From Patescibacteria group bacterium (GTDB lineage: Bacteria > Patescibacteriota > Patescibacteriia > Magasanikbacterales > UBA922), in assembly GCA_038065155.1 (NCBI GenBank), contig JBBTRO010000161.1, positions 1 through 32,704 of the forward strand: a stretch of DNA of 32,704 bases. Reading direction: 5' to 3'. This document shows positions 9,585 to 32,704 of this stretch, piece by piece. Position 1 is the first letter of the stretch. Every line of letters begins with the position of its first letter. The translations under genes were made by a program, and so were the position numbers. Under the pieces are notes generated by a model. That model saw only the letters and a list, made by a program, of their open reading frames with translations, was not told the DNA's origin and ran no database searches.

Positions 9585-9617
9585 AATTGTTGAAAGTGTT
9601 ATAGAAAAATAGAATAC

Positions 9618-9661
9618 GGGGGTGGGGGCGGAGTTCTGAACGAACCGACCGCCCCCTCCCC
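9618..9661 (-). terminator. GC-rich hairpin plus U-tract downstream of cassette A gene
   Basis: On the minus strand, GGGGAGGGGGCGG-17 nt loop-CCGCCCCCACCCC is followed by CGTATTCTATTTTTCT. There is no T-tract on the plus-strand side. Confidence 0.55.
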
Positions 9662-9694
9662 GCATGAAATGCCGACCGAACAGTCAGCACACCG

Positions 9695-10153
9695 TCATTC
9701 GTTGTGGATCACGAAGCCGGCGGCGTCGATGGTCGCGACGGCCAGCTCGACGTCCTGGACCGTGACTTCGAAAGATTTCGACCCCTCCCTTGTGATGAAC
9801 TCGATGTTGTGGAACCTGATCCACTTGTTATTGCGTTTGTCTTTCATCACCTCTGCCTCTTGGACATCACGTGGCGTGATCTTGCCCTCGAGGAACAGGC
9901 GGATGGCGATGTTCGGGTTCACCACGATGTGGTGGATCTTGTTTCCGTTGCCGGCGAATACGTCCAAGTCGATGACACACACGATTCCAGGACTCGCCGG
10001 AGCCGGCTCGGCCTGAACGAACATGCCGCCGAGCGATACCACCGACATGATCCAAGAATTCCCGCCGTCACTCACAAAGCCCTTCTGGCCAAAGACGGTA
10101 ATTGCCTTGCCATCGAGCTCCAGAACGACTTTATCGATGTCGCTTGTAGCCAT
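9695..10153 (-). CDS. Orphan protein A (152 aa), GC-rich cassette
   Basis: The ATG at 10153 is preceded by AAGGAGAG (4-nt spacer). The minus frame has strong G/C third-position bias. Promoter-like and terminator-like signals flank it. No family recognised. Confidence 0.6.
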   Translation of the reverse strand: MATSDIDKVVLELDGKAITVFGQKGFVSDGGNSWIMSVVSLGGMFVQAEPAPASPGIVCVIDLDVFAGNGNKIHHIVVNPNIAIRLFLEGKITPRDVQEAEVMKDKRNNKWIRFHNIEFITREGSKSFEVTVQDVELAVATIDAAGFVIHNE

Positions 10154-10196
10154 GATACTCTCCTTCTTCACCCGATCTGGGTGTGATGATGGGTAA

Positions 10197-10225
10197 AAAC
10201 TAACACGCTTTCACCCGTGTGTCAA
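10197..10225 (-). promoter_or_regulatory. Sigma70-like promoter for cassette A (TTGACA-17 nt-TAGTTT)
   Basis: The -35 is the reverse complement of 10220-10225 and the -10 is the reverse complement of 10197-10202, with an exact 17-nt spacer. Confidence 0.35.
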
Positions 10226-10241
10226 TCCAAACAATGAAGAA

Positions 10242-10820
10242 TCAAAACGGCAACGTCAAATTTACCCCCGACGACTGCTGAAGCGCTGTCGTCACAGGCA
10301 GAGGATCAAAATTGACCGCAAATGGCACAAGGTCACCGGTAATTTTGGGATAATACAGCATCTTGTTCTTCCGGCCGTATTCGTAGACTTCTTTGGTTAC
10401 TCGGACATCCTGCTCACAATACTTTTTTACTTCATCGATCTTACCCTCTTTGTACCACTGCATTGCCTGAAGCCCATCAGCGCTTTTTTCGATTTGAAGC
10501 GTGGCTTTAGCAATATCATTGAGTTTGAAACGAGTGCCGGTGGATTCTTTGATGACTTTTAGAAGATCAAGATGCGGAATTCGGCTCAAGTCCCCGGTAT
10601 ATTGCTGTTGCATTATCGGCAAATCGAAATGCGCGCTGTTGAAGCCGACAATCCGTTCGGCATGCTCTAAAATCGGCCAAAGCTCACGAAGTCCATGCTC
10701 ATCAAACGAACGGTAGCGATCATGCTCATATTCGTAAATCGAAACGACGGTAATTTTCATACTGGCGTAATTACGAATATCACCGATAGTTTCGATGTCG
10801 AATACGATTTCCTTTGACAT
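10242..10820 (-). CDS. DEDD-type 3'-5' exonuclease / RNase H-like domain protein
   Basis: Shows Exo I FDIET, Exo II GFNSAHFDLP and Exo III YCEQD motifs in the correct order and spacing. Confidence 0.75.
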   Translation of the reverse strand: MSKEIVFDIETIGDIRNYASMKITVVSIYEYEHDRYRSFDEHGLRELWPILEHAERIVGFNSAHFDLPIMQQQYTGDLSRIPHLDLLKVIKESTGTRFKLNDIAKATLQIEKSADGLQAMQWYKEGKIDEVKKYCEQDVRVTKEVYEYGRKNKMLYYPKITGDLVPFAVNFDPLPVTTALQQSSGVNLTLPF

Positions 10821-10829
10821 ACAGAGTTA

Positions 10830-10901
10830 AGAAAATAGAAAGTAGAAAATAGTAAATAGAATAACGGAAGAAATTCTTCTATTTTCCATTTTCTATTTTC
10901 T
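10830..10901. repeat. Long imperfect palindrome built from AAAATAGAAA-type low-complexity units
   Basis: Arm AGAAAATAGAAAGTAGAAAATAG (10830-10852) pairs with arm CTATTTTCCATTTTCTATTTTCT (10879-10901) at 21 of 23 positions. An inner palindrome GAAGAAaTTCTTC lies at 10867-10879. Confidence 0.6.
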
Positions 10902-10906
10902 AGATT

Positions 10907-11257
10907 CTAAACCTTCTTGAAGCTCACCTTAAACACCGGCTCATACGTATTATCGTACTGATCCTTTACCTCCACCGTCTCCCCCTTCATCATCATACTG
11001 ATCGCCATATCAGTCATCATTTCAGTATCCGAAGCGAGATCAATCGCCATGTCATCAAGTTTGGTAAATTCAGCTGCGAATTGTTCTTTGGTGGTCGCTT
11101 CAATCTGTTTTTTCTTTTCTTTCAAAGTTTTCATCTTTTCCACGATTTCCTGGTATTCCAAAGAGCCGTTCAAAGCCTCTTTGTACGAGGCGCGAAGATC
11201 TTTTTGTTTTTTCTTAAGTTCAATGGTGCGTTGAAAAATTTCTTGCAGTGATTGCAT
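10907..11257 (-). CDS. Hypothetical coiled-coil protein (116 aa)
   Basis: ATG start and host-like AT-rich codon usage. The Lys/Glu-rich heptad-like sequence is LKKKQKDLRASYKEAL...KMKTLKEKKKQIEA. Confidence 0.6.
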   Translation of the reverse strand: MQSLQEIFQRTIELKKKQKDLRASYKEALNGSLEYQEIVEKMKTLKEKKKQIEATTKEQFAAEFTKLDDMAIDLASDTEMMTDMAISMMMKGETVEVKDQYDNTYEPVFKVSFKKV

Positions 11258-11298
11258 AAAAGAAAAATTATGTGGTCAGTATAGTACCACACATCTCC

Positions 11299-11336
11299 AA
11301 AAATAGAAAAGTGGGCAACCGGGCTTGGCTGTCCAC
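11299..11336 (-). terminator. Intrinsic terminator downstream of cassette B gene
   Basis: On the minus strand, GTGGACAGCC-AAGCCC-GGTTGCCCAC (11311-11336) is followed by TTTTCTATTTTT (11299-11310). Confidence 0.55.
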
Positions 11337-11363
11337 TCTTCAGGATTGTTACCAAACTGTGTC

Positions 11364-11888
11364 TCAGCGATACTTGGCCCAGAGCTCCTTGATGTTTCCC
11401 CACGACACACTCACTTCCCGGTTCATCTTGCCTTTGACTTGATTCAGCTTCACGCCACTGGTCGTCACCCCTGCCCAGCGCATATAGGGTACGACCATGC
11501 CGCCTCTCATCCGCAGGTGCATGCGCTCACCGTCCATTACCCGTGTCAGATCCACGATGCTTGCATCCTCAATCACATTGATGATCTGTTTTGGCTCCAA
11601 ATCATCACTCTTTTTCACGAGTACCCGGCAACGTTCACAGACCGTCCGACGACAGTTGAAGGCCGTACCGGCAAGCGGGTAATACACGTACAGGATTACC
11701 CGCAGATGATGCTGAGTATCGGCACATTCGCAGATAGAGTTCCTTGCGAAGAACCCGCACGACTCGGCATCAATATCGGTCTCGAACATTTCCGTGCCCT
11801 CTGGGCGGCCGTAGCACTTGCTCGGCATGTAGCCGAGAACCAATTCCGATTCGTCATCATACACTTCCCCGGCAACAAACACGCCCAT
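11364..11888 (-). CDS. Orphan Cys/His-rich protein B (174 aa), GC-rich cassette
   Basis: The ATG at 11888 is preceded by AGGAGG (8-nt spacer). The frame has G/C third-position bias. Cys/His pattern: C53xC55-x4-H60H61-x16-N78-x5-C84xxC87. No family assigned. Confidence 0.6.
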   Translation of the reverse strand: MGVFVAGEVYDDESELVLGYMPSKCYGRPEGTEMFETDIDAESCGFFARNSICECADTQHHLRVILYVYYPLAGTAFNCRRTVCERCRVLVKKSDDLEPKQIINVIEDASIVDLTRVMDGERMHLRMRGGMVVPYMRWAGVTTSGVKLNQVKGKMNREVSVSWGNIKELWAKYR

Positions 11889-11913
11889 GGTGTTGTCCTC
11901 CTTTCTATTTCCC

Positions 11914-11942
11914 ACTATATGGTAGACAAGGAAAACGGTCAA
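11914..11942 (-). promoter_or_regulatory. Sigma70-like promoter for cassette B (TTGACC-17 nt-TATAGT)
   Basis: The -35 is the reverse complement of 11937-11942 and the -10 is the reverse complement of 11914-11919, with an exact 17-nt spacer. It lies ~25 nt upstream of the RBS. Confidence 0.4.
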
Positions 11943-11951
11943 TGCTACAAT
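11923..11951 (+). promoter_or_regulatory. Candidate folD promoter (TAGACA-17 nt-TACAAT) interleaved with the cassette B promoter
   Basis: The -35 is at 11923-11928 and the -10 at 11946-11951. It lies 18 nt upstream of the folD ATG. Confidence 0.3.
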
Positions 11952-11969
11952 AATCGTGCATTGAACCCT

Positions 11970-12818
11970 ATGGGCCAACTCATCGATGGAAAAGCGATTG
12001 CCCAGAAGATAGAACAAGAAACCGCCGCTCGGGTGGCTGCCTTGAAGCAAACAGGCGCGACACCGAAACTGGCGGTTATTTTAGTTGGCGAGGACAAGCC
12101 GTCGCAAACCTATGTACGGAAAAAGGGCGAAGCGGCAAAAAAAGCCGGAATGAATTTTGCTCTGCACGAGATCAAAGAATCCACTTCCACGCTTGAACTT
12201 ATTGAAAAAATTGAAGAGATCCAATCTGATTCGGAATTGTCCGGGCTGATTGTGCAACTTCCACTGCCGCCGCAGATTGATACGAATGCAGTCCTCAATA
12301 CTATTCGACCCGAGATTGATATTGATTGTTTAACAGAAGTGAACTTGGGAAAACTGATCATGAAAAGTAACCTGATCGAGCCGCCAACACCGGGCGCAGT
12401 CATGAGTATTCTCGAACATCTTCAGGTAGATCTTGTCGGGAAAAATGTTACCATTATCGGAGCCGGGCCACTGGTCGGCAAACCCCTCGCCGTCATGATG
12501 ATAAACGCGCGCGCGTCGGTGACTGTTTGCAACAGTAAAACTCGTGATACCAAGGAAAAATGCTTGGCCGCTGATGTTATTGTAACGGGTGTTGGGAAAA
12601 AAGATGTTCTGCGTGGGGATATGGTGCGAAAAGGAGCAATTGTCATTGACACCGGCGTTGATTTTGTAGAAGGCAAAATGTACGGCGATGTGAATGTTGA
12701 TGAAGTTGTTCAAAATGCTGGCTGGGTAACACCGACGCCTGGAGGAGTAGGACCGATAACCGTGGCACGACTTCTATTGAATACTATCACTTGCGCCGAG
12801 AACAAACTTAAGAACTAA
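11970..12818 (+). CDS. folD: Bifunctional methylene-THF dehydrogenase/methenyl-THF cyclohydrolase
   Basis: Starts MGQLIDGKAIAQKI... and contains LAVILVGEDKPSQTYVRKK, PPTPGAVM, GAGPLVGKP and PTPGGVGPITVA. The ATG at 11970 gives a typical ~282-aa FolD. The listed 497-aa ORF is an upstream artefact through the GC-rich cassette. Confidence 0.92.
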   Translation: MGQLIDGKAIAQKIEQETAARVAALKQTGATPKLAVILVGEDKPSQTYVRKKGEAAKKAGMNFALHEIKESTSTLELIEKIEEIQSDSELSGLIVQLPLPPQIDTNAVLNTIRPEIDIDCLTEVNLGKLIMKSNLIEPPTPGAVMSILEHLQVDLVGKNVTIIGAGPLVGKPLAVMMINARASVTVCNSKTRDTKEKCLAADVIVTGVGKKDVLRGDMVRKGAIVIDTGVDFVEGKMYGDVNVDEVVQNAGWVTPTPGGVGPITVARLLLNTITCAENKLKN

Positions 12819-12823
12819 TTTTT

Positions 12824-14095
12824 ATGCAGGCAAAAATCACGGTTGTGGTGGGCGCTCAATGGGGCGATGAAGGAAAAGGAAAAATCACCGATCTTCTGGC
12901 GGCTGATTCAGATTACGTGGTGCGCTTTCAGGGCGGAAACAATGCTGGGCACACTCTGGCAGTCAGCGATAAAACATACAAACTACACCTGATCCCCTCA
13001 GGTGTTTTGTATCCGCAATGTATTTCTGTCATTGGAAATGGCGTTTTGGTTGACCCAAAAGTGCTTTTGGCGGAAATTGCAGAGTTCAAAACGCAAGGCA
13101 TTGAAGTAAACCTAAAAATCAGTGAACGAGCGCATGTGATTATGCCCTATCACATTGCGATCGATGGCGCTCTTTCCGGACACCAAGGACAACTTGGCGC
13201 CGGCAGTACCAACCGCGGGATTGCACCTGTCTCGGCTGACAAGGTCTATCGGCATGGCATTCGCATGGGCGACCTTTTGGATAAAGAACTATTCAAAGAA
13301 AAGCTGGTCAAAGCCTACACATTTAACAAAGGTATCGTCCAATCTCTCGGCGGCCAACTCGACTGCTCGTTTGAAGATATATACAGTGAATATGTCGCGT
13401 ATGGTGAGCAGTTGCGGTCATATATAACCGATACAGAATTGGAATTGTACCAAGCGTTTAAAGCCGGCAAAAAAATTCTTTTTGAAGGCGCTCAGGGAAT
13501 GTCGCTTGACCCCGACCACGGCATGTACCCGCACACGACCAGTACCAACAATGTTGCGCCGTACGCAGCCGTGGGTTCAGGAGTAGGAATTTTGAACACT
13601 CCCGTTCGAGTAGTGGGACTCGTAAAAGCCTACGTGAGTCGTGTCGGCATTAGTCCGTTTATTACAGAACTCCCTGAAAATGAGGCTAATGTCCTACGCG
13701 ACAAAGGAAATGAGTATGGTACAACAACCGGTCGACCGCGTCGCGTGGGTTGGCTTGATTTGGTTCAGGTGAGACAAGCAGTACGTGTGTCTGGACTCAC
13801 CGATATCGCGCTCACGAAGCTCGATATTCTAACTGGTTTTCCGGAAATTAAAGTCTGTACTGCCTATGACATTGATGGCGTTCAAGTAACCGAAATGCCA
13901 GCTAGTCTAAGCAAGATCCGTAAAGCTAAACCAATGTATAAAATTTTCCCAGGGTGGGACAACCTTGGCTCAACCTATGATACCCTCCCCTCTTCGGTGA
14001 AAAATTATATTGAATTTATTGAGAAAGAAGTTGAATGCAGAGTTTCAATTATTTCTCTGGGGCCAAAACGAGAACAAACGATCATCAGAAATTGA
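12824..14095 (+). CDS. purA: Adenylosuccinate synthetase
   Basis: Contains GAQWGDEGKGK, GGNNAGHT, GTTTGRPRR and TKLDIL. Confidence 0.95.
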   Translation: MQAKITVVVGAQWGDEGKGKITDLLAADSDYVVRFQGGNNAGHTLAVSDKTYKLHLIPSGVLYPQCISVIGNGVLVDPKVLLAEIAEFKTQGIEVNLKISERAHVIMPYHIAIDGALSGHQGQLGAGSTNRGIAPVSADKVYRHGIRMGDLLDKELFKEKLVKAYTFNKGIVQSLGGQLDCSFEDIYSEYVAYGEQLRSYITDTELELYQAFKAGKKILFEGAQGMSLDPDHGMYPHTTSTNNVAPYAAVGSGVGILNTPVRVVGLVKAYVSRVGISPFITELPENEANVLRDKGNEYGTTTGRPRRVGWLDLVQVRQAVRVSGLTDIALTKLDILTGFPEIKVCTAYDIDGVQVTEMPASLSKIRKAKPMYKIFPGWDNLGSTYDTLPSSVKNYIEFIEKEVECRVSIISLGPKREQTIIRN

Positions 14096-14107
14096 AATTG
14101 GCAAACT

Positions 14108-16441
14108 ATGCCATCCGCTTTAGAGACAATCGATTTTTCTCACCTTACCTGGAGCGAAGCAGAGGAGATTTTGAAAAAGAATAATCTCGCTCTCACGGTG
14201 GAGGAAGCGTTAAAAATTCAAAATGAAATTCTCCATCGCCCGCCAACCCTCACGGAGTGTATTTTGTGGTCGATCCAGGGATCAGAACACAGTTCCTATA
14301 AAAGCAGTAGAAAGCACTTAAAGCAGTTCCTAACCACTAGCCAAGACGTCATTTTGGGTCCAGGCGAAGATGCTGGCATTGTGGCCGTGGCAAAAGATAA
14401 TGCGGGCCACCGCTACGGCATTGTGATGAGTCACGAATCGCACAATCACCCATCGCAAGTTGTCCCTTATGAGGGGGCGGCGACTGGAATTGGCGGCAAT
14501 GTGCGCGATGTCTCGTGTATGGGCGCCAAGGTGATCGCCAATGCCGATCCCCTGCGATTTGGCGACATTAAAAGTAATAAAACAAAATGGATTCACGAAG
14601 GCGTCGTCGCTGGCATTGCTGGATACGGCAACCCAATTGGTGTACCAGTTATTGCCGGGGACACATATTACGATGAATCTTACAATGAAAATTGTTTAGT
14701 CAATGTCGTCTCTCTCGGCGTCGTACTTGAAAATGAAGTGATTCATTCACGTGCGCCCAAAAATGCCATCGGGTATGATTTGGTTTTAGTTGGCAAACCG
14801 ACCGATAACAGCGGTTTTGGCGGCGCTAGTTTTGCTTCGCTCGAACTTGACGAAAGTAAACAAGAACAAAACAAAGGTGCAGTCCAGGAGCCTAATGCAT
14901 TCTTGAAACGCCATCTTTTAAAGGCCCACTACACTCTTTTTGAAATTCTCAAAGAAAAAAATCTCATTGATCGTGTCGGATTCAAGGATTTAGGCGCTGG
15001 CGGCATTGCCTGCGCATCAGTAGAGTTAGCTGACGCCGGTGGTTATGGCGCAGAGGTGAACGTGGATTTGATACCAACGAGTATAAAGGGTCTTCACCCA
15101 GCGGTAATTCTGTGCTCCGAGACACAAGAGCGGTATATGTGGGTCGTGCCAAAAGAACTTTCGGCTCTAATTCTCAATCATTACAACCAAACTTTCCGAC
15201 TTCCTGATATTGCCGAAGGCGCATGCGCCGCAGTGATTGGTGAAATTCGACAAGACAGTCAATATATTGTGAAAAGCCGCGGGCAGGAAATTATTCATGC
15301 CAAAGCCAGCGATGTTACTCAGGGTCTTGTGTACGATCGGCCATATCGGAAGCCGGAACGTTCATTCCAAGAACCAACGTTGTCCCCTCCTTCTGAAGGA
15401 GGGGCAAGGGGTGATCAATTCAATGAAACATTTCTTAAAATCCTTTCCCACGAAAATGTTGCCTCCCGCGAACCGATCTACGAAAATTACGACAAACAAG
15501 TGCAAGGGATTACAGTAATTGAACCAGGTGAAGCTGATGCTGGCGTGCTGCGGCCGTTTCACGATGCCAAATATCCAATTGAGATACAGTCGGTTGGAAT
15601 TGCGTTGTCAGTTGACCACAATCCGCGCTATTGCCAGATTGATCCGTATTGGGGCGCGGTGAATGCCGTGGTAGAATCAATTCGCAATGTCGCGGCCGTG
15701 GGAGCCGCCCCAGTTGCTCTCACCGATTGCCTCAACTTTAGTAACCCAGAAAAGCCAGAACAAATGTGGGAATTTGTGGAAGGCACACGGGGTGTTGCCG
15801 AAGCCGGCAAAGCTCTTAATGTACCAATTATTTCTGGCAATGTATCGCTCTACAATGAGACCAAAGGCAAGGCAATCGCGCCTTCACCAGTGATTGCCTG
15901 TTTGGGCACGATGTCTGATGCCAAGCGAGCAATTACTATGCATTTCAAGCAGGTTGGTTCTTTGTTATTTCTTATTGGTGAGAGAAAAGACGAATGCGGC
16001 GGCAGTGTGTATTATCAATTATTCAACCAACTAGGAGCAAACGTGCCAAAGCCTGATTTTAAAGAAGTCGAAAAACAGATGACTGCGCTAACGAATGCAA
16101 TCCAACAGGGCTTAATTCTATCCGCTCACGATATTTCCGATGGTGGCATTGCGACTACACTAGCAGAAATGAGTTTTGGGAATGAAATTGGTGCTGATGG
16201 GGATATTCCTGGTGATCTGCAGAATGATAAAAAGTTATTTGGTGAAACTGGCGGATTTGTGATTGAGGTAGCGTTAGATATGGCTATGAAGATCAAAAAT
16301 TTATTTACCGAAAATCAAGTCCCACTAATTGAGATTGGGAAAACCATTGCAGACAAAAAATTGAAAATGAATAATGTGATTGACGCTGACTTGCTTGAGG
16401 CAAAAAAGAAATGGAAAAATGGACTGAGAGAGAAATTGTAG
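14108..16441 (+). CDS. purL: FGAM synthase II (small PurL) with a short in-frame repeat insertion
   Basis: 777 aa containing ESHNHPS, GGNVRD, DLGAGG and SAHDISDGG. Confidence 0.95.
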   Translation: MPSALETIDFSHLTWSEAEEILKKNNLALTVEEALKIQNEILHRPPTLTECILWSIQGSEHSSYKSSRKHLKQFLTTSQDVILGPGEDAGIVAVAKDNAGHRYGIVMSHESHNHPSQVVPYEGAATGIGGNVRDVSCMGAKVIANADPLRFGDIKSNKTKWIHEGVVAGIAGYGNPIGVPVIAGDTYYDESYNENCLVNVVSLGVVLENEVIHSRAPKNAIGYDLVLVGKPTDNSGFGGASFASLELDESKQEQNKGAVQEPNAFLKRHLLKAHYTLFEILKEKNLIDRVGFKDLGAGGIACASVELADAGGYGAEVNVDLIPTSIKGLHPAVILCSETQERYMWVVPKELSALILNHYNQTFRLPDIAEGACAAVIGEIRQDSQYIVKSRGQEIIHAKASDVTQGLVYDRPYRKPERSFQEPTLSPPSEGGARGDQFNETFLKILSHENVASREPIYENYDKQVQGITVIEPGEADAGVLRPFHDAKYPIEIQSVGIALSVDHNPRYCQIDPYWGAVNAVVESIRNVAAVGAAPVALTDCLNFSNPEKPEQMWEFVEGTRGVAEAGKALNVPIISGNVSLYNETKGKAIAPSPVIACLGTMSDAKRAITMHFKQVGSLLFLIGERKDECGGSVYYQLFNQLGANVPKPDFKEVEKQMTALTNAIQQGLILSAHDISDGGIATTLAEMSFGNEIGADGDIPGDLQNDKKLFGETGGFVIEVALDMAMKIKNLFTENQVPLIEIGKTIADKKLKMNNVIDADLLEAKKKWKNGLREKL
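15384..15414 (+). repeat. Palindromic repeat family copy d (truncated), in frame inside purL
   Basis: The CCCCTCCTTCTGAAGGAGGGG hairpin plus CAAGGGGTGA encodes SPPSEGGARGD. Confidence 0.65.
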
Positions 16442-16505
16442 TTTACAAGAAAAACAAAAGACCGCTCTTTTACAAGCAGTCCTCTGCAGAAAAATTAGAT
16501 TGTTT

Positions 16506-16564
16506 TGTCCACAGCATCCAGCTTCATTTTTCGGAGGAAAAGTGGAGCTAGATCGCCGTGGACA
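16506..16564. other. 59-nt extended hairpin between purL and cassette C
   Basis: TGTCCACAGC/GCCGTGGACA, ATCCAGCTTCA/TGGAGCTAGAT and TTTT/AAAA stack coaxially. The apical loop is CGGAGG on the plus strand (CCUCCG on the minus strand). Confidence 0.55.
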
Positions 16565-16593
16565 CCTCCTTTCTTGTAAGCACGACGATAAAA

Positions 16594-17037
16594 TTAGGGA
16601 TGCCCCTTTCGAATATAGCTGATGAGGAGTACGAGGCCCGTCGCGTTCGCGAGAAAAGTCGCAAACGCTTGAACCAACTCCATGACAGCGTCGGTAATCT
16701 GCGTATCGTCAAAACGAGAAGGCTTCTGGTCTATTTCCAGCTCACCGTTCTGGAGCTGAATAAAAAGCTCCTGTACACCGCTTCCCCGAATACAGGCGCT
16801 GATTTTGCGGCAGGAGTGCTCCGGTTGGCGGATTTGGATGGAAACTGTTACACCTCGTCTTTCCGCGAGATCGCAGAGTGATTTCATGCAGTGCATGAAC
16901 AGAGCATCTACCATCCTCTGATCACGAGCCGCAGTACCGTCCAAAGACAGGTTGTAGGCAGAATCGACCGTGAAGCAAAGATCCTGGCCACTAGATTCCA
17001 TCCGAACGGTCGCCGAGTGCATGACCTTCTTGCTCAT
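16594..17037 (-). CDS. Orphan protein C2 (147 aa), second gene of GC-rich two-gene cassette
   Basis: The ATG at 17037 is preceded by GAGGAGGTGGTGAA. It overlaps the C1 stop by 4 nt (ATGA at 17034-17037). No family recognised. Confidence 0.55.
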   Translation of the reverse strand: MSKKVMHSATVRMESSGQDLCFTVDSAYNLSLDGTAARDQRMVDALFMHCMKSLCDLAERRGVTVSIQIRQPEHSCRKISACIRGSGVQELFIQLQNGELEIDQKPSRFDDTQITDAVMELVQAFATFLANATGLVLLISYIRKGHP

Positions 17038-17420
17038 TTCACCACCTCCTCGAGAACGGCACCGAGCCACTCGAGCGCAGTTTTGATCAATTTCATCCCC
17101 TCCTCTGTGATACGCGCCGGATGGGTGGAAGTGTCCTCCCCACTGAAATGAACCGACAGGATGGTACGGTCCGCAGGCGAGAAAAACATCATGTTACCCA
17201 CATTTATGACTCCAGACATCGGCAACTGACAGGATTCGGGAATCTGTCCGCCACAGATGGCGAGAAGACGCCTGATCACATCGAGTAGAACCAGAATCTT
17301 TATATCCTGGTCAACATGGTAGTCAAGAGAAAATCCACGGTCGGCTCGGACACTGAGCTGGAAGAGCTCCCTATCCCCGTGTTTATGAGTTGTCCACAAA
17401 GAAATGAGTACCCTTTTCAC
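17034..17420 (-). CDS. Orphan protein C1 (~128 aa), first gene of GC-rich two-gene cassette
   Basis: The GTG at 17420 is preceded by GGAGG (5-nt spacer). An alternative GTG at 17447 would give 137 aa. No family recognised. Confidence 0.5.
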   Translation of the reverse strand: MKRVLISLWTTHKHGDRELFQLSVRADRGFSLDYHVDQDIKILVLLDVIRRLLAICGGQIPESCQLPMSGVINVGNMMFFSPADRTILSVHFSGEDTSTHPARITEEGMKLIKTALEWLGAVLEEVVK

Positions 17421-17490
17421 TGTCACCTCCGCAACAGAGTAAATCACTAAAAAAAATATTCGTCAATTACTTCACTTATTGTCAAGTACT

Positions 17491-18525
17491 ATGCCCATAA
17501 ACTACAAAACCGCCGGCGTGGACATTGATAACGCCAACGAAACCAAAAAACAAATGGCTGATGATTTGAAAAGTGATGACAAGCGCGTACTCAACAAACT
17601 CGGCGCCTTTGCTTCGCTTTACGATATTAAATTTCCGGAATACAAACACCCGCTCCTGGTCCTAAAAACCGAAGAGCCCGGCAGTAAACAATTGCTGGCG
17701 ATTCAATATGACAGAATCGAAAGCATTTGTTTTGACATGATTAATCATTTGGTGAATGATTGTATTGTGATGGGGGCAAAACCACTGACGGTTCAGGATG
17801 CAATTATTTGCGGCAAGCTTAAAAAGGAGGTCGTTTTGCGCATGGTGAAAGCAATGTCGAGAGCCTGCCAGGCGCAGGGCTGCAGCCTGACCGGCGGCGA
17901 GACATCCGAACAGCCTGGTGTCCTTGTGGAAGATACCTATATTTTGACATCCAGCATCGTTGGCATCGTTGAAAAAGAGTCTGTCATCGACGGCAGTCAA
18001 ATTATGGTGGGTGACAAAATTTTGGCTTTGGAATCCAGCGGGCTCCATACCAATGGCTATACGCTCATTAGAAAACTCATTCAAGAAAATCCCAGCCTAG
18101 TAAATGAAAAAATCGGCGACACAAAATTCATTGAAGCCGTTCTGGAACCTCACCGCTGTTACTATAATGCCATTAAAGATCTTTTTCCCACAAAAAAAAT
18201 CACTGGCCTGGCTCATATCACTGGCGGCGGCATCAAAGAAAATTTGAACCGTATTTTGCCAAAAAACATGAACGCAAAGGTGGATTTAAGTCTTTATCAA
18301 ATTTTACCGATCTTCAAATTTTTGAAAAGCTATGCCAAACTTGAGGATGCTGAATTGCTCCGAACATTCAACATGAGCGTCGGTCTAACCATGGTAGTAA
18401 AAAAAGAAGCAGTTGGGGAAATAATAATGTTTATCCAGAAAAAAGGCGTCAATTGCTATGAGATTGGAGGTATTGTAGATGGCAATGGCGTTGTAGAAAC
18501 TACTGGCCAATTACGTTATGACTAA
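17491..18525 (+). CDS. purM: AIR synthetase
   Basis: Contains YKTAGVDI, the NHLVNDCIVMGAKPL region and LTGGETSEQPGV. The ATG at 17491 is preferred over the TTG at 17479. Confidence 0.92.
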   Translation: MPINYKTAGVDIDNANETKKQMADDLKSDDKRVLNKLGAFASLYDIKFPEYKHPLLVLKTEEPGSKQLLAIQYDRIESICFDMINHLVNDCIVMGAKPLTVQDAIICGKLKKEVVLRMVKAMSRACQAQGCSLTGGETSEQPGVLVEDTYILTSSIVGIVEKESVIDGSQIMVGDKILALESSGLHTNGYTLIRKLIQENPSLVNEKIGDTKFIEAVLEPHRCYYNAIKDLFPTKKITGLAHITGGGIKENLNRILPKNMNAKVDLSLYQILPIFKFLKSYAKLEDAELLRTFNMSVGLTMVVKKEAVGEIIMFIQKKGVNCYEIGGIVDGNGVVETTGQLRYD

Positions 18526-20867: not shown

Positions 20868-21185
20868 GTGAACAGGAAAAAATGTGGCTCGGAAAAAAAA
20901 ATTGACGACGTTATTGAAGCGTATTTGGCTGCCTACATTGCAGAGGCTGGTGAACCGCTTGAAGTGTATCTTATAGGCAGTAGCCTCAAGAAAACGACCT
21001 ACGACGGTGGGGACATTGATTTGGTCTTCATAACAAATGGCCCCTTGACAACATCGCGGCAAAAATTTACTTCACCTTCAGACTTCGCTCGTTTTCTGGG
21101 AATTATTCATGAGCAGGAAGTACAGTCAACCGATGAAGAATATAAAAAATTTTTATTAGCCAGAGGTTATAAAAAAATTAAATAA
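20868..21185 (+). CDS. Small Pol-beta-type nucleotidyltransferase-domain protein (start uncertain; see A9 tract)
   Basis: LIGSSLKK...GGDIDLVF fits the GS...DxD minimal NTase signature. The GTG start at 20868 is as listed. The upstream ATG at 20864 is out of frame by one base across an A9 run. Confidence 0.5.
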   Translation: MNRKKCGSEKKIDDVIEAYLAAYIAEAGEPLEVYLIGSSLKKTTYDGGDIDLVFITNGPLTTSRQKFTSPSDFARFLGIIHEQEVQSTDEEYKKFLLARGYKKIK

Positions 21186-29009: not shown

Positions 29010-29318
29010 TTAGTCGCCATTAAACTTAATGTATTCATGTACGCTAATTGTTTTTAAAAATTCAATGAATTGATAAATTAAGTTTTGCGTATCTTGGCTC
29101 ACTTCATTTTTTAATTTTTCTAGCTCTGCAACTACAATTGGAATCTGGAGGGAGTTGAAAACTGTGTCTCCATATTCATCTATTGCATGTAACCATTTAT
29201 ATCTCTTTTTTGCATCAACATCCCATAAAATTTTCTTTATTAATGCAAAATTTAATTCAGAATCTTTAATCAGCTTACCATTTTTATCTTCAAGTCGACA
29301 TCCAATATGTTGAGCCAT
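29010..29318 (-). CDS. AT-rich orphan protein (102 aa)
   Basis: ATG start and a clean ORF, but very AT-rich (16/60 G+C at 29041-29100). No family recognised. Confidence 0.5.
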   Translation of the reverse strand: MAQHIGCRLEDKNGKLIKDSELNFALIKKILWDVDAKKRYKWLHAIDEYGDTVFNSLQIPIVVAELEKLKNEVSQDTQNLIYQFIEFLKTISVHEYIKFNGD

Positions 29319-32639: not shown

Positions 32640-32704
32640 ATAACTTGGAGTTTGTTATTATAGGGTATTTTATTTAACAATTCCGGTGGCTATTTTTAAA
32701 ATTA

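What the first reader, a model, noticed from the sequence alone, without database searches (positions are those of the whole stretch)
9589..17490. Three compositionally foreign, self-contained minus-strand cassettes (four orphan genes) wedged between housekeeping genes
The cassettes are A (about 9618-10225), B (about 11299-11942) and C (about 16506-17466).

They share one architecture that differs from the host genes:
- **G+C content.** Spot counts per 60-nt line are 38/60 at 9721-9780, 39/60 at 11461-11520 and 34/60 at 16621-16680. The folD line at 12181-12240 gives 22/60.
- **Codon bias.** G/C-ending codons fall specifically in the minus frame.
- **Ribosome-binding site.** Each start has AGGAG/GGAGG 4-8 nt upstream. 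The starts of purA, purL, purB, purF, purM and sufB in this window have none.
- **Promoters.** Each has -35/-10 hexamers with exactly 17-nt spacing: TTGACA/TAGTTT, TTGACC/TATAGT, and a weaker TTGACG/TTTACT.
- **Downstream hairpin.** Each has its own.

B and C are antisense to the flanking pur genes and physically interrupt an otherwise collinear plus-strand purine cluster. None of the four proteins resembles a family I can name.

The pattern is what recent horizontal insertions of small autonomous modules would look like (defence, toxin-antitoxin or selfish-gene-like). The four products might even work together, but that is inference only.
Basis: partly seen in the sequence, partly recalled or inferred. 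Interest (0 to 1): 0.7.

Follow-up and report, generated by a model that had tools for sequence, protein, structure and literature searches.

The report
GC-rich orphan gene cassettes in Patescibacteria
Four small genes of unknown function, each with its own start and stop signals and a ribosome-binding site that the neighbouring housekeeping genes lack, sit between core genes of an uncultured groundwater bacterium; they are real and gained or lost as single units, but they are not all recent imports and nothing shows what they do.

Summary
The window is a Patescibacteria MAG contig (Magasanikbacteria-like relatives, 45% G+C).

- **Composition:** the four minus-strand ORFs A, B, C1 and C2 have GC3 0.59-0.76, against 0.23-0.52 for core genes. 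They have the four least host-like codon usages of 34 genes.
- **Ribosome-binding site:** their Shine-Dalgarno (SD) sites pair with the anti-SD more strongly than those of any of 41 core genes.
- **Terminators:** each cassette ends in a stable hairpin followed by a T-run.
- **Assembly:** four other assemblies carry junctions they span, so this is not an assembly chimera.
- **Fifth case:** a fifth gene of the same type lies about 8 kb beyond the window.

- **A:** absent from the same exonuclease/fpr junction in a sister genome.
- **B:** absent from the folD/cc junction in the closest relative. However, B belongs to a four-member family. One homologue (29% identity) sits upstream of the same neighbouring gene in another sister genome, with host-like composition, and every member keeps a TTGACA-type -35 box and an SD. 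B is therefore an old, fast-evolving resident, not a recent arrival.
- **C:** its junction could not be tested.
- **Homology:** A, C1 and C2 have no detectable homologue. No defence, toxin-antitoxin, phage, plasmid or RNA-family match was found.

Best reading: moron-like autonomous accessory cassettes, function unknown.

The parts
10197..10225 (-). Cassette A promoter-like site: TTGACA (10225-10220), 17-nt spacer, TAGTTT (10202-10197), with TGT just before the -10 box. The spacer also forms a terminator-like hairpin directly after the exonuclease gene.
   Evidence: Sequence read. The hairpin at 10220-10203 was flagged. The -10 box matches only 3 of 6, so this is a weak prediction.
10160..10165 (-). 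Cassette A Shine-Dalgarno site AAGGAG, 6 nt before the ATG at 10153
   Evidence: duplex energy -8.8 kcal/mol
9695..10153 (-). Orphan gene A, 152 aa, G+C 0.56, GC3 0.76. Annotated as a hypothetical protein (locus tag AAB408_05380).
   Evidence: (only itself among 5.8 billion proteins). AlphaFold2 on the single sequence gave pLDDT 35. The gene is absent at the syntenic junction in L086.
9600..9665 (-). Cassette A intrinsic terminator: a G+C-rich hairpin (9665-9614) followed by a T-run. It could also terminate the convergent fpr gene.
   Evidence: the 97-nt stretch folds at -51.1 kcal/mol, z = -5.9
11914..11942 (-). Cassette B promoter-like site TTGACC-17-TATAGT. It overlaps a divergent folD promoter-like site (TAGACA-17-TACAAT, 11923-11951, plus strand).
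   Evidence: 10 of 12 matches. B homologues in L086, L084 and L085 each have TTGACA upstream.
11897..11903 (-). Cassette B Shine-Dalgarno site AAGGAGG, 8 nt before the ATG at 11888
   Evidence: -11.6 kcal/mol. An SD is present in all four family members.
11364..11888 (-). Gene B, 174 aa, GC3 0.67. Member of a four-member family with a CxC...CxxC motif. Predicted as two beta-rich domains; the short SH3-like-barrel matches probably fall in the C-terminal one.
   Evidence: invariant C53, C55, C84; pLDDT 78.8, pTM 0.75; no fold match with E <= 0.001
11299..11341 (-). Cassette B intrinsic terminator: hairpin followed by TTTTCTATTTTT
   Evidence: z = -2.55
17438..17466 (-). Cassette C promoter-like site TTGACG-17-TTTACT (weak -10 box). 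It shares the 70-nt spacer with the purM start at 17491.
   Evidence: Sequence read. Not reported by the consensus scan.
17426..17430 (-). C1 Shine-Dalgarno site GGAGG, 5 nt before the GTG at 17420
   Evidence: -10.8 kcal/mol
17034..17420 (-). Orphan gene C1, 128 aa, GC3 0.59. Its stop codon overlaps the C2 start (ATGA).
   Evidence: (only itself found)
17045..17050 (-). C2 Shine-Dalgarno site AGGAGG, inside the 3' end of C1, 7 nt before the ATG at 17037
   Evidence: -13.1 kcal/mol
16594..17037 (-). Orphan gene C2, 147 aa, GC3 0.60, with a hydrophobic C-terminal segment (residues about 121-139)
   Evidence: (only itself found)
16445..16564 (-). Cassette C 3' region: two stable hairpins (16564-16506 and 16487-16454). 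The second is followed by a T-run and abuts the purL stop codon.
   Evidence: -58.9 kcal/mol, z = -6.3

Best explanation
The four ORFs are real protein-coding genes. They belong to a dispersed class of small accessory genes in a Magasanikbacteria-like Patescibacterium.

**How the cassettes are expressed**
Each cassette is an autonomous, moron-like expression unit: a sigma-70-type promoter, a short leader with a strong SD, one ORF or two translationally coupled ORFs, and an intrinsic terminator. The cassettes sit in spacers between core genes. The core genes start translation without an SD, in an A/T-rich context with T at position -1. The cassettes therefore carry their own transcription and translation signals and do not depend on their neighbours.

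**How they came to be there (inferred)**
They are gained and lost as single units within this clade. The most likely source is a G+C-richer, SD-using gene pool, such as mobile elements or phages of the clade or other bacteria. Once resident, they diverge very quickly. A looks like the youngest arrival. B is an old resident family.

**What they do (inferred only)**
- All four appear to be cytoplasmic small proteins.
- B is a Cys-cluster (probably zinc-binding) beta domain followed by a second beta-rich domain (short SH3-like-barrel matches probably fall here), which suggests a binding or regulatory protein rather than an enzyme.
- C1 and C2 are a translationally coupled pair that probably forms a complex.
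- Fast turnover suggests conflict or host-interaction roles, but nothing tested here shows that.
For: **The genes are real and the contig is not an artefact**
- GC3 periodicity in the minus frame, an SD plus start codon, and terminators all agree.
- B is conserved at the protein level in three distant homologues (E = 1.5e-11 to 2.8e-7) and gives a confident AlphaFold2 model from only four sequences (pLDDT 78.8).
- Four other assemblies are nearly identical to the window over the junctions they span (three at over 99.7%, the low-coverage L003 at 96.6% with many gaps).

**They form a distinct class**
- Their codon usage is the four lowest of 34 genes.
- SD pairing is stronger in five of five orphans than in any of 41 core genes.
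- A fifth member (71 aa, G+C 0.58, AGGAGG, hairpin terminator) lies just outside the window.
- In sister genome L086, the only two of 13 genes with a GGAGG before the start are the B homologue and a 423-aa orphan.
- A more distant relative (Candidatus Magasanikbacteria, L088, 42% G+C) carries a 65% G+C, GC3 0.87 orphan with its own promoter-like site.

**They are gained or lost as units**
- A is missing between the exonuclease gene and fpr in L086, where the gap is 7 nt against 657 nt here.
- B is missing between folD and cc in L091.

**B is an old resident**
- A homologue lies upstream of cc in L086. A second, in L084, is followed by a glutaredoxin gene; in L086 glutaredoxin lies one gene further on, after cc.
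- B is 29% identical between the window and L086, while the flanking genes are 74-90% identical. B therefore evolves much faster than its neighbours.
Against: - No donor or mobile-element signature was found: no integrase, no transposase, no flanking direct or inverted repeats, and no hit in IMG/VR, phage or plasmid collections.
- GC1 and GC2 are almost host-like. Only synonymous sites are G+C-enriched. Selection on native genes could produce that pattern as well as foreign origin could.
- The SD and the -35 box are conserved across B homologues that are only about 28% identical. This argues that the signals are functional in this clade and not relics of a donor.
- In L086 the B homologue has host-like GC3 (0.51), so the G+C excess is not a constant property of the family.
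- The promoter predictions for A and C are weak.
- A, C1 and C2 were searched only with the word-indexed tool. B's homologues are at a level of identity (27-31%) that it may not reach and were found with exhaustive HMMER. 'No homologue' is therefore not proven for A, C1 and C2.
- Function is entirely inferred.
Confidence: 0.55

Rival explanations
1. The cassettes are a native special regulon. The clade's ribosomes can still use an SD, but reserve it for a small set of its own G+C-rich (more structured) mRNAs. These are translated conditionally or very efficiently. The closest analogy is the few SD-led genes of Bacteroidia, whose anti-SD is normally masked. High GC3 would then reflect selection at synonymous sites, not foreign origin.
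For: - The SD and the TTGACA -35 box are retained in all four B-family members despite about 28% identity.
- B is syntenic in L086.
- GC1 and GC2 are host-like and only GC3 is raised.
- The preferred codons are C-ending pyrimidine pairs (ATC, AAC, TTC), which are typical of translational selection.
- The core genes show a uniform non-SD start context.
Against: - A and B vary in presence between close relatives.
- A, C1 and C2 have no detectable relatives.
- A GC3 of 0.87 in a 42% G+C genome (L088) is too extreme for translational selection.
- The B homologue in L086 has host-like GC3.
- No highly expressed native gene was available for comparison.
Confidence: 0.25
2. A, C1 and C2 are young genes that arose de novo, or diverged beyond recognition, inside intergenic DNA of this species. 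They are not imports.
For: - Only self-hits were found among 5.8 billion clustered proteins.
- AlphaFold2 gave no confident fold for A (pLDDT 35).
- No donor was found.
Against: - Intergenic DNA here is A/T-rich, whereas the ORFs are the most G+C-rich stretches of the window.
- The syntenic spacer for A in L086 is only 7 nt, so about 650 nt would have had to appear first.
- Complete promoter-SD-terminator sets and 128-152-codon ORFs with strong codon periodicity are unlikely to arise from noise.
Confidence: 0.1
3. The cassettes are known conflict systems. C1-C2 is a type II toxin-antitoxin pair, and A and B are single-gene anti-phage defence or anti-defence proteins.
For: - C1 and C2 are small, adjacent and overlap by ATGA, with an SD for C2 inside C1.
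- The cassettes vary between strains and B evolves fast.
Against: - No match in PADLOC, Pfam, NCBIfam or PHROGs.
- No sequence match in the PDB.
- No neighbouring defence genes.
- At 128 and 147 aa, both proteins are large for a classical toxin-antitoxin pair, and neither shows a recognisable DNA-binding domain.
- This is a statement about function. It is compatible with the main explanation and does not replace it.
Confidence: 0.12
4. The cassettes are artefacts: chimeric assembly, contaminating DNA, or non-coding G+C-rich structured RNAs mistaken for genes.
For: - The composition differs sharply from the flanks.
- The MAGs are of low coverage.
- Antisense shadow ORFs exist.
Against: - Four other assemblies, including a 275-kb contig, carry the junctions they span (three at over 99.7% identity, L003 at 96.6%).
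- No Rfam family matches, even at E <= 1.
- Codon periodicity, SD and start codons are all present.
- B is conserved at the protein level.
Confidence: 0.03

Closest known systems
Phage 'morons' (the concept of Hendrix and colleagues; recalled from my own knowledge)
   Same: - A single gene is flanked by its own sigma-70-type promoter and a factor-independent terminator.
- Its base composition differs from that of its neighbours.
- It sits between two genes that are adjacent in related genomes.
- It is usually of unknown or accessory function.
   Different: - Here the flanks are chromosomal housekeeping genes (Fe-S cluster assembly, folD, the pur operon), not a prophage.
- No phage relative of any of the four proteins was found.
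- The cassettes also differ from the host in how translation starts (SD against no SD). That is not part of the moron concept.
SD-led minority genes in lineages that otherwise avoid the SD (Bacteroidia such as Flavobacterium johnsoniae, from my own knowledge; Parcubacteria lacking the anti-SD motif, PMC9297842)
   Same: - Core genes start translation without an SD, while a few genes keep a strong one.
- In Parcubacteria the 16S anti-SD motif was detected in only 48% of genomes (PMC9297842).
   Different: - In Bacteroidia the SD-led genes are native regulators such as rpsU.
- Here they are orphan accessory genes with foreign-looking codon usage.
- Whether this organism has an anti-SD could not be checked.
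Type II toxin-antitoxin operons (relevant to C1-C2 only)
   Same: Two small co-oriented genes with overlapping stop and start codons, their own promoter, and an accessory distribution.
   Different: - No homology to any toxin or antitoxin family.
- No recognisable DNA-binding domain.
- Both proteins are longer than typical pairs.
Integron gene cassettes and miniature transposable elements
   Same: Small single-gene units found between unrelated genes, each followed by a hairpin.
   Different: - These cassettes carry their own promoters.
- There is no integrase and no attC-type conserved site.
- There are no terminal inverted repeats or target-site duplications, and the cassettes share no end sequences.

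Membership tests
Moron-like autonomous cassette | Own promoter upstream and own intrinsic terminator downstream | tested here: met
   - Terminators: (z = -5.9, -2.6, -6.3).
- B's promoter matches 10 of 12.
- The promoters of A and C have good -35 boxes at 17-nt spacing but weak -10 boxes.
- This is sequence prediction only.
Moron-like autonomous cassette | Base composition differs from the flanking genes | tested here: met
Moron-like autonomous cassette | Inserted between genes that are adjacent in related genomes | tested here: met
   - A: the exonuclease gene and fpr are 7 nt apart in L086.
- B: folD and cc are 79 nt apart in L091.
- C: not tested, because no sister purL/purM junction was obtained.
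Moron-like autonomous cassette | Resides in a phage or prophage genome | tested here: not met
   - The flanks are the suf/isc genes, fpr, folD and the pur genes.
- No PHROG, IMG/VR or phage-collection hit.
- The only phage link is that a 49% homologue of the neighbouring cc gene sits in a phage-like recombination module (L089).
Type II toxin-antitoxin (C1-C2) | Two small adjacent co-transcribed genes with translational coupling | tested here: met
   ATGA overlap at 17034-17037, and the SD of C2 lies inside C1
Type II toxin-antitoxin (C1-C2) | Homology of either partner to a known toxin or antitoxin family | tested here: not met
   Pfam, PADLOC, NCBIfam and PHROGs give no significant hit. No PDB sequence hit.
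Type II toxin-antitoxin (C1-C2) | One partner is toxic and the other neutralises it | not testable with these tools
   Requires expression experiments
Known anti-phage defence systems (PADLOC-DB) | Match to a model of a defence-system protein | tested here: not met
   0 families at E <= 1 for all four proteins
Insertion sequence, MITE or integron cassette | Terminal inverted repeats, target-site duplication, attC site, transposase or integrase | tested here: not met
   No flanking repeats beyond short chance-level matches. No transposase or integrase ORF within the about 50 kb examined.
Structured non-coding RNA | Match to an Rfam covariance model, and absence of coding signal | tested here: not met
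   No Rfam hit in the cassettes at the gathering threshold or at E <= 1. Codon periodicity is strong.
B family (new; four members) | CxC...CxxC (or Cys3-His) cluster, HLR..G motif and C-terminal W..I.E.W motif, over about 170 aa | tested here: met
   Alignment A2: invariant C53, C55, C84, H124, R126, G129, W163, E168 and W170. E-values.

The most novel reading that the evidence does not exclude
This Parcubacteria-type lineage runs two translation-initiation regimes side by side. Core genes start without an SD. A dispersed set of G+C-rich, self-contained orphan genes, about one per 10 kb here, keeps a canonical SD that selection preserves even across 28%-identical orthologues.

If true, SD pairing would be reserved for a special gene class. 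These genes might be translated conditionally, as happens with masked anti-SD ribosomes in Bacteroidia. Alternatively, they might be built to be expressed by a different translation apparatus, for example that of a phage or of the bacterial host of this presumed episymbiont.
Probability: 0.15. Interest if true: 0.75.

Novelty: new variant of a known kind. Interest (0 to 1): 0.45.

Why it matters
Patescibacteria genomes are small and full of unannotated genes, and little is known about how they acquire and express accessory functions. In this genome the accessory genes can be recognised from sequence alone: high GC3, a strong SD, and their own terminator, against a core that uses no SD.

- **Practical use.** This gives a simple handle for listing the flexible gene pool of the clade.
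- **A testable question.** Part of the Parcubacteria is reported to lack the anti-SD motif. If SD pairing in this lineage is used only for these genes, that would be a second example, after Bacteroidia, of an SD reserved for a minority of genes.
- **A new small family.** B also defines a small protein family: a Cys-cluster domain followed by a second beta-rich domain (with only short SH3-like-barrel matches), with no sequence or fold relative in the libraries searched.

If the cassettes turn out to be ordinary horizontally acquired orphans, the result is modest.

Tried and rejected
**Protein family libraries.** Pfam, PADLOC, PHROGs and NCBIfam gave nothing significant for any of the four proteins.

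**Homologue searches**
- The word-indexed search of 5.8 billion proteins returned only self-hits for A, C2 and C1.
- PDB sequence searches found nothing significant.
- tblastn against the phage and plasmid collections found nothing.
- IMG/VR scans with A, B, the B alignment, C2, C1 and the cc alignment found nothing.

**Similarity between the cassettes.** The four proteins show no mutual similarity and have no other copy in the window.

**Structure**
- AlphaFold2 on A alone was uninformative (pLDDT 35).
- Foldseek searches with the B model against the PDB and BFVD gave no match with E <= 0.001, only local hits of about 55 residues to SH3-like barrels.

**Mobile-element and RNA signatures**
- The repeat search found no transposon-type ends.
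- Rfam found nothing in the cassettes.

**Sister genomes**
- The GTDB genome scan with purA returned no close relative. The best hit was 61% identical and had a different gene order.
- The metagenome scan with the cc alignment returned four loci, none covering purL/purM.

**Strain variation.** Substitutions between the near-identical assemblies are too few to estimate selection, and many look like low-coverage errors (G>T and C>A).

**A false lead.** A weak C2 match at the end of L086 (E = 0.009) lies in what looks like a GIY-YIG remnant and was treated as chance.
Full report
**Origin of the window.** Exact look-ups show that the window is a 32,704-bp contig of a 'Patescibacteria group bacterium' MAG (proteins MEK76240xx). 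The same sequence lies on a 275-kb contig of GCA_964360825.1 and on several contigs from Hainich groundwater assemblies. These other assemblies are nearly identical over the junctions they span: three differ at only 3-6 positions (over 99.7% identity) and the low-coverage L003 is 96.6% identical with many gaps. A chimeric assembly is therefore excluded. A more distant relative found through a neighbouring gene is annotated as Candidatus Magasanikbacteria.

**Check of the observation.**
- The three cassettes have 56.2%, 52.5% and 50.7% G+C, against 44.7% for the rest of the window. Each contains a 600-nt stretch richer in G+C than any of 563 such stretches outside the cassettes.
- The excess lies at third codon positions of the minus-strand frames. 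GC3 is 0.76 (A), 0.67 (B), 0.59 (C1) and 0.60 (C2), against 0.23-0.52 for core genes. GC1 and GC2 are nearly host-like.
- A leave-one-out codon-usage likelihood ratio ranks the four orphans as the four lowest of 34 genes. They prefer ATC, AAC, TTC, GAG, CAG, AAG and CTC.
- Every orphan has a strong SD at 5-8 nt from its start codon. None of the core gene starts has one.
- Predicted pairing with the anti-SD is -8.8 to -13.1 kcal/mol for the four orphans plus a fifth one just outside the window. For 41 core genes the mean is -1.95 and the best is -7.7 (Mann-Whitney U = 0, p = 1.6e-4).
- Core gene starts are A/T-rich and have T at position -1 in 29 of 41 cases.
- All three cassettes end in stable hairpins followed by T-runs.

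- C1 starts at the GTG at 17420 and is 128 aa long.
- Only B's promoter is a strong consensus match. Promoter-like sites as a whole are not enriched over shuffled sequence.
- The spacer of A's promoter doubles as a terminator-like hairpin after the exonuclease gene.
- B lies at the edge of the pur cluster, divergent from folD. The real folD start is probably 11970, because relatives align only from residue 18. Only C interrupts the cluster.

**Are these genes?** Yes, with good confidence. The cassettes combine SD, start codon, ORFs of 128-174 codons, codon periodicity and terminators. No Rfam family matches them, even at E <= 1. For B there is direct evidence. The exhaustive HMMER search of 1.84 billion representative proteins found three homologues at 27-31% identity (E = 1.5e-11 to 2.8e-7). 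They share invariant residues, including a CxC...CxxC cluster and a C-terminal W..I.E.W motif. With only four sequences, AlphaFold2 gave pLDDT 78.8 and pTM 0.75 for a two-domain, beta-rich model.

**What the proteins resemble.** Nothing known.
- Pfam, PADLOC, PHROGs and NCBIfam returned no significant family.
- PDB sequence searches found nothing.
- tblastn against 50,697 phage and 72,556 plasmid records found nothing, and IMG/VR scans found nothing.
- Foldseek with the B model gave no match with E <= 0.001 in the PDB or BFVD. It gave only local matches of about 55 residues to SH3-like barrels such as NdhS, the C-terminal domain of retroviral integrase, RimP and Tudor domains. These probably fall in the C-terminal domain.
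- A, C1 and C2 returned only themselves from 5.8 billion clustered proteins. That tool needs shared 5-residue words and may not reach homologues as distant as B's, so the absence of relatives is not proven.
- The four proteins are unrelated to one another. All are mildly acidic, and none has a signal-peptide-like N-terminal hydrophobic stretch. C2 has a hydrophobic C-terminal stretch.

**Comparison with sister genomes.**
- *L086* is a 51-kb contig. Its cc, exonuclease, SufB and fpr proteins are 74%, 80%, 90% and 51% identical to those of the window. It carries a B homologue directly upstream of cc, in the order B-cc-glutaredoxin-115 aa-exonuclease, with fpr convergent. The exonuclease gene and fpr are 7 nt apart, so cassette A is absent there.
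- The L086 B homologue, read from its internal ATG, is 174 aa long, the same length as B here. It has TTGACA, a GGAGG at 6 nt and a hairpin terminator, but host-like GC3 of 0.51.
- *L084* is a 972-bp contig with a B homologue (GC3 0.67, GGAGG SD) followed by a glutaredoxin gene.
- *L085* has a B homologue preceded by a coupled 37-codon ORF. Both ORFs are SD-led and lie behind a TTGACA box.
- *L091* is the closest relative (cc 93% identical). There folD and cc are divergent neighbours 79 nt apart, with no B between them.
- *L087* (cc 83% identical) has a co-oriented gene end plus a hairpin terminator just upstream of cc. It also has a G+C-rich stretch right after the exonuclease gene, but the contig is too short to identify either.

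The simplest history for B is an ancestral, clade-restricted gene next to cc that diverges far faster than its neighbours and was lost in L091. Re-insertion at the same site cannot be excluded. A is a strain- or species-level insertion, or a deletion in L086. No sister sequence was obtained for the junction of cassette C.

**The pattern extends beyond the window.** Walking about 10 kb past each end of the window on the 275-kb contig added 13 core genes without an SD. It also added one more orphan (71 aa, G+C 0.58, AGGAGG at 8 nt, strong hairpin), lying between convergent genes. In L086, the only genes with a GGAGG before the start are the B homologue and a 423-aa protein with no Pfam or PHROG match. 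In the Magasanikbacteria contig L088 (42% G+C), a 220-230-aa orphan has 65% G+C and GC3 0.87, behind its own promoter-like site and a structured leader. G+C-rich orphans therefore recur across this clade, and those seen in this genome are also SD-led and self-contained.

**Interpretation.** The architecture is that of phage 'morons': promoter, gene, terminator, deviant composition, and a position between genes that are adjacent elsewhere. Here, however, the setting is chromosomal housekeeping DNA, and there is an added contrast in translation initiation.

I favour the reading (0.55) that these are accessory cassettes exchanged and lost as units within the clade, drawn from a G+C-richer, SD-using gene pool. 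They keep their own signals because the host context supplies none.

The main rival (0.25) is a native class of SD-dependent genes. Its supports are:
- conservation of the SD and -35 box across very divergent B orthologues;
- nearly host-like GC1 and GC2;
- a preference for C-ending codons.

A published survey reports that the anti-SD motif was detected in only 48% of Parcubacteria (PMC9297842).

A defence, toxin-antitoxin or cooperative function has no support beyond gene size, the coupling of C1 and C2, and variable presence.

**Verdict.** 'Compositionally foreign, self-contained cassettes' is a fair description. 'Recent horizontal insertions' fits A, is contradicted in part for B, and is untested for C. 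Function remains unknown. Novelty is moderate: a chromosomal, SD-marked variant of moron-like accessory cassettes in a lineage whose core genes lack an SD, together with one new small protein family.

Noticed in passing
L092 1968-2183 (+), about 8 kb beyond the right end of the window on the 275-kb contig: A fifth orphan of the same type (71 aa, MEK7623067.1). It has G+C 0.58, AGGAGG 8 nt before the ATG and a strong hairpin terminator, and lies between convergent genes.
   Followed up: partly
L088 6788-7450 (-), Candidatus Magasanikbacteria contig (OGH88213.1): A 220-230-aa orphan with 65% G+C and GC3 0.87 in a 42% G+C genome. It sits behind a TTGACA...TAAAAT site and a long hairpin-containing leader. 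No hit in Pfam or in the phage and plasmid collections.
   Followed up: partly
window 29010-29318 (-): A 102-aa orphan with the opposite bias (G+C 0.29, GC3 0.23), between purH and guaB. It is an A/T-rich outlier with no significant family match.
   Followed up: no
window 10907-11257 (-) and L089 4090-4440: The coiled-coil protein next to B is highly conserved in the clade (74-93% identity). A 49%-identical homologue sits inside a phage-like recombination module (Erf-like annealing protein, exonuclease, NinB/Orf, HNH, C5 methylase, DnaB).
   Followed up: partly
window 10823-10908: An A/T-rich inverted repeat (30-nt arms, 83% complementary) fills the spacer between cc and the exonuclease gene. 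It produced a spurious mir-1252 match. The motif CTATTTT recurs here and in the terminator tails of A and B.
   Followed up: no
window 11892-11910 and 11301-11319: B's SD-containing leader is 84% complementary over 19 nt to the descending arm and T-run of B's own terminator. This could allow 5'-3' pairing that masks the SD, or it could be chance.
   Followed up: no
window 11919-32639 and L092: A nearly complete de novo purine pathway is present: purF, D, N, L, Q, M, E, C, B, H and A, plus folD, guaA and guaB. From my own knowledge, this is unusual for Patescibacteria, which mostly lack nucleotide biosynthesis.
   Followed up: no
about 41 core gene starts in the window, L092 and L094: Core genes have no SD, have T at position -1 in 29 of 41 cases, and sit in A/T-rich, G-poor upstream sequence. 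Several have a -10-like box only 7-15 nt before the ATG, which suggests very short leaders or leaderless mRNAs.
   Followed up: partly
window 11919-11969: The annotated folD start (11919) is probably 17 codons too early. Relatives align from residue 18 (MGQLIDGKAIA), and a TG-extended TACAAT box lies just upstream of 11970.
   Followed up: partly
window 32672-32704: The last 33 nt of the window disagree at 22 positions with the 275-kb contig and with another assembly. This is probably a contig-end assembly artefact.
   Followed up: partly
window 20868-21185 (+): A 105-aa gene inside the pur operon has weak matches to minimal nucleotidyltransferase domains (PF01909, E = 0.001, below the curated cut-off).
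   Followed up: no
L085 840-1190: Directly after the B homologue's terminator there is a consensus promoter (TTGACA-17-TATAAT), then about 300 nt without an obvious ORF, ending in a hairpin and T-run. No Rfam family matches. This may be an unknown small RNA.
   Followed up: no
L086 10696-11967 (+): A 423-aa protein with no Pfam or PHROG match. Apart from the B homologue, it is the only other gene in that sister locus preceded by GGAGG (7 nt before the ATG).
   Followed up: no
L087 1045-1115: In a 39.5% G+C relative, the 71 nt after the exonuclease stop codon are G+C-rich and form a hairpin. This hints that another cassette occupies the junction where A sits here. The contig ends too soon to tell.
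   Followed up: partly
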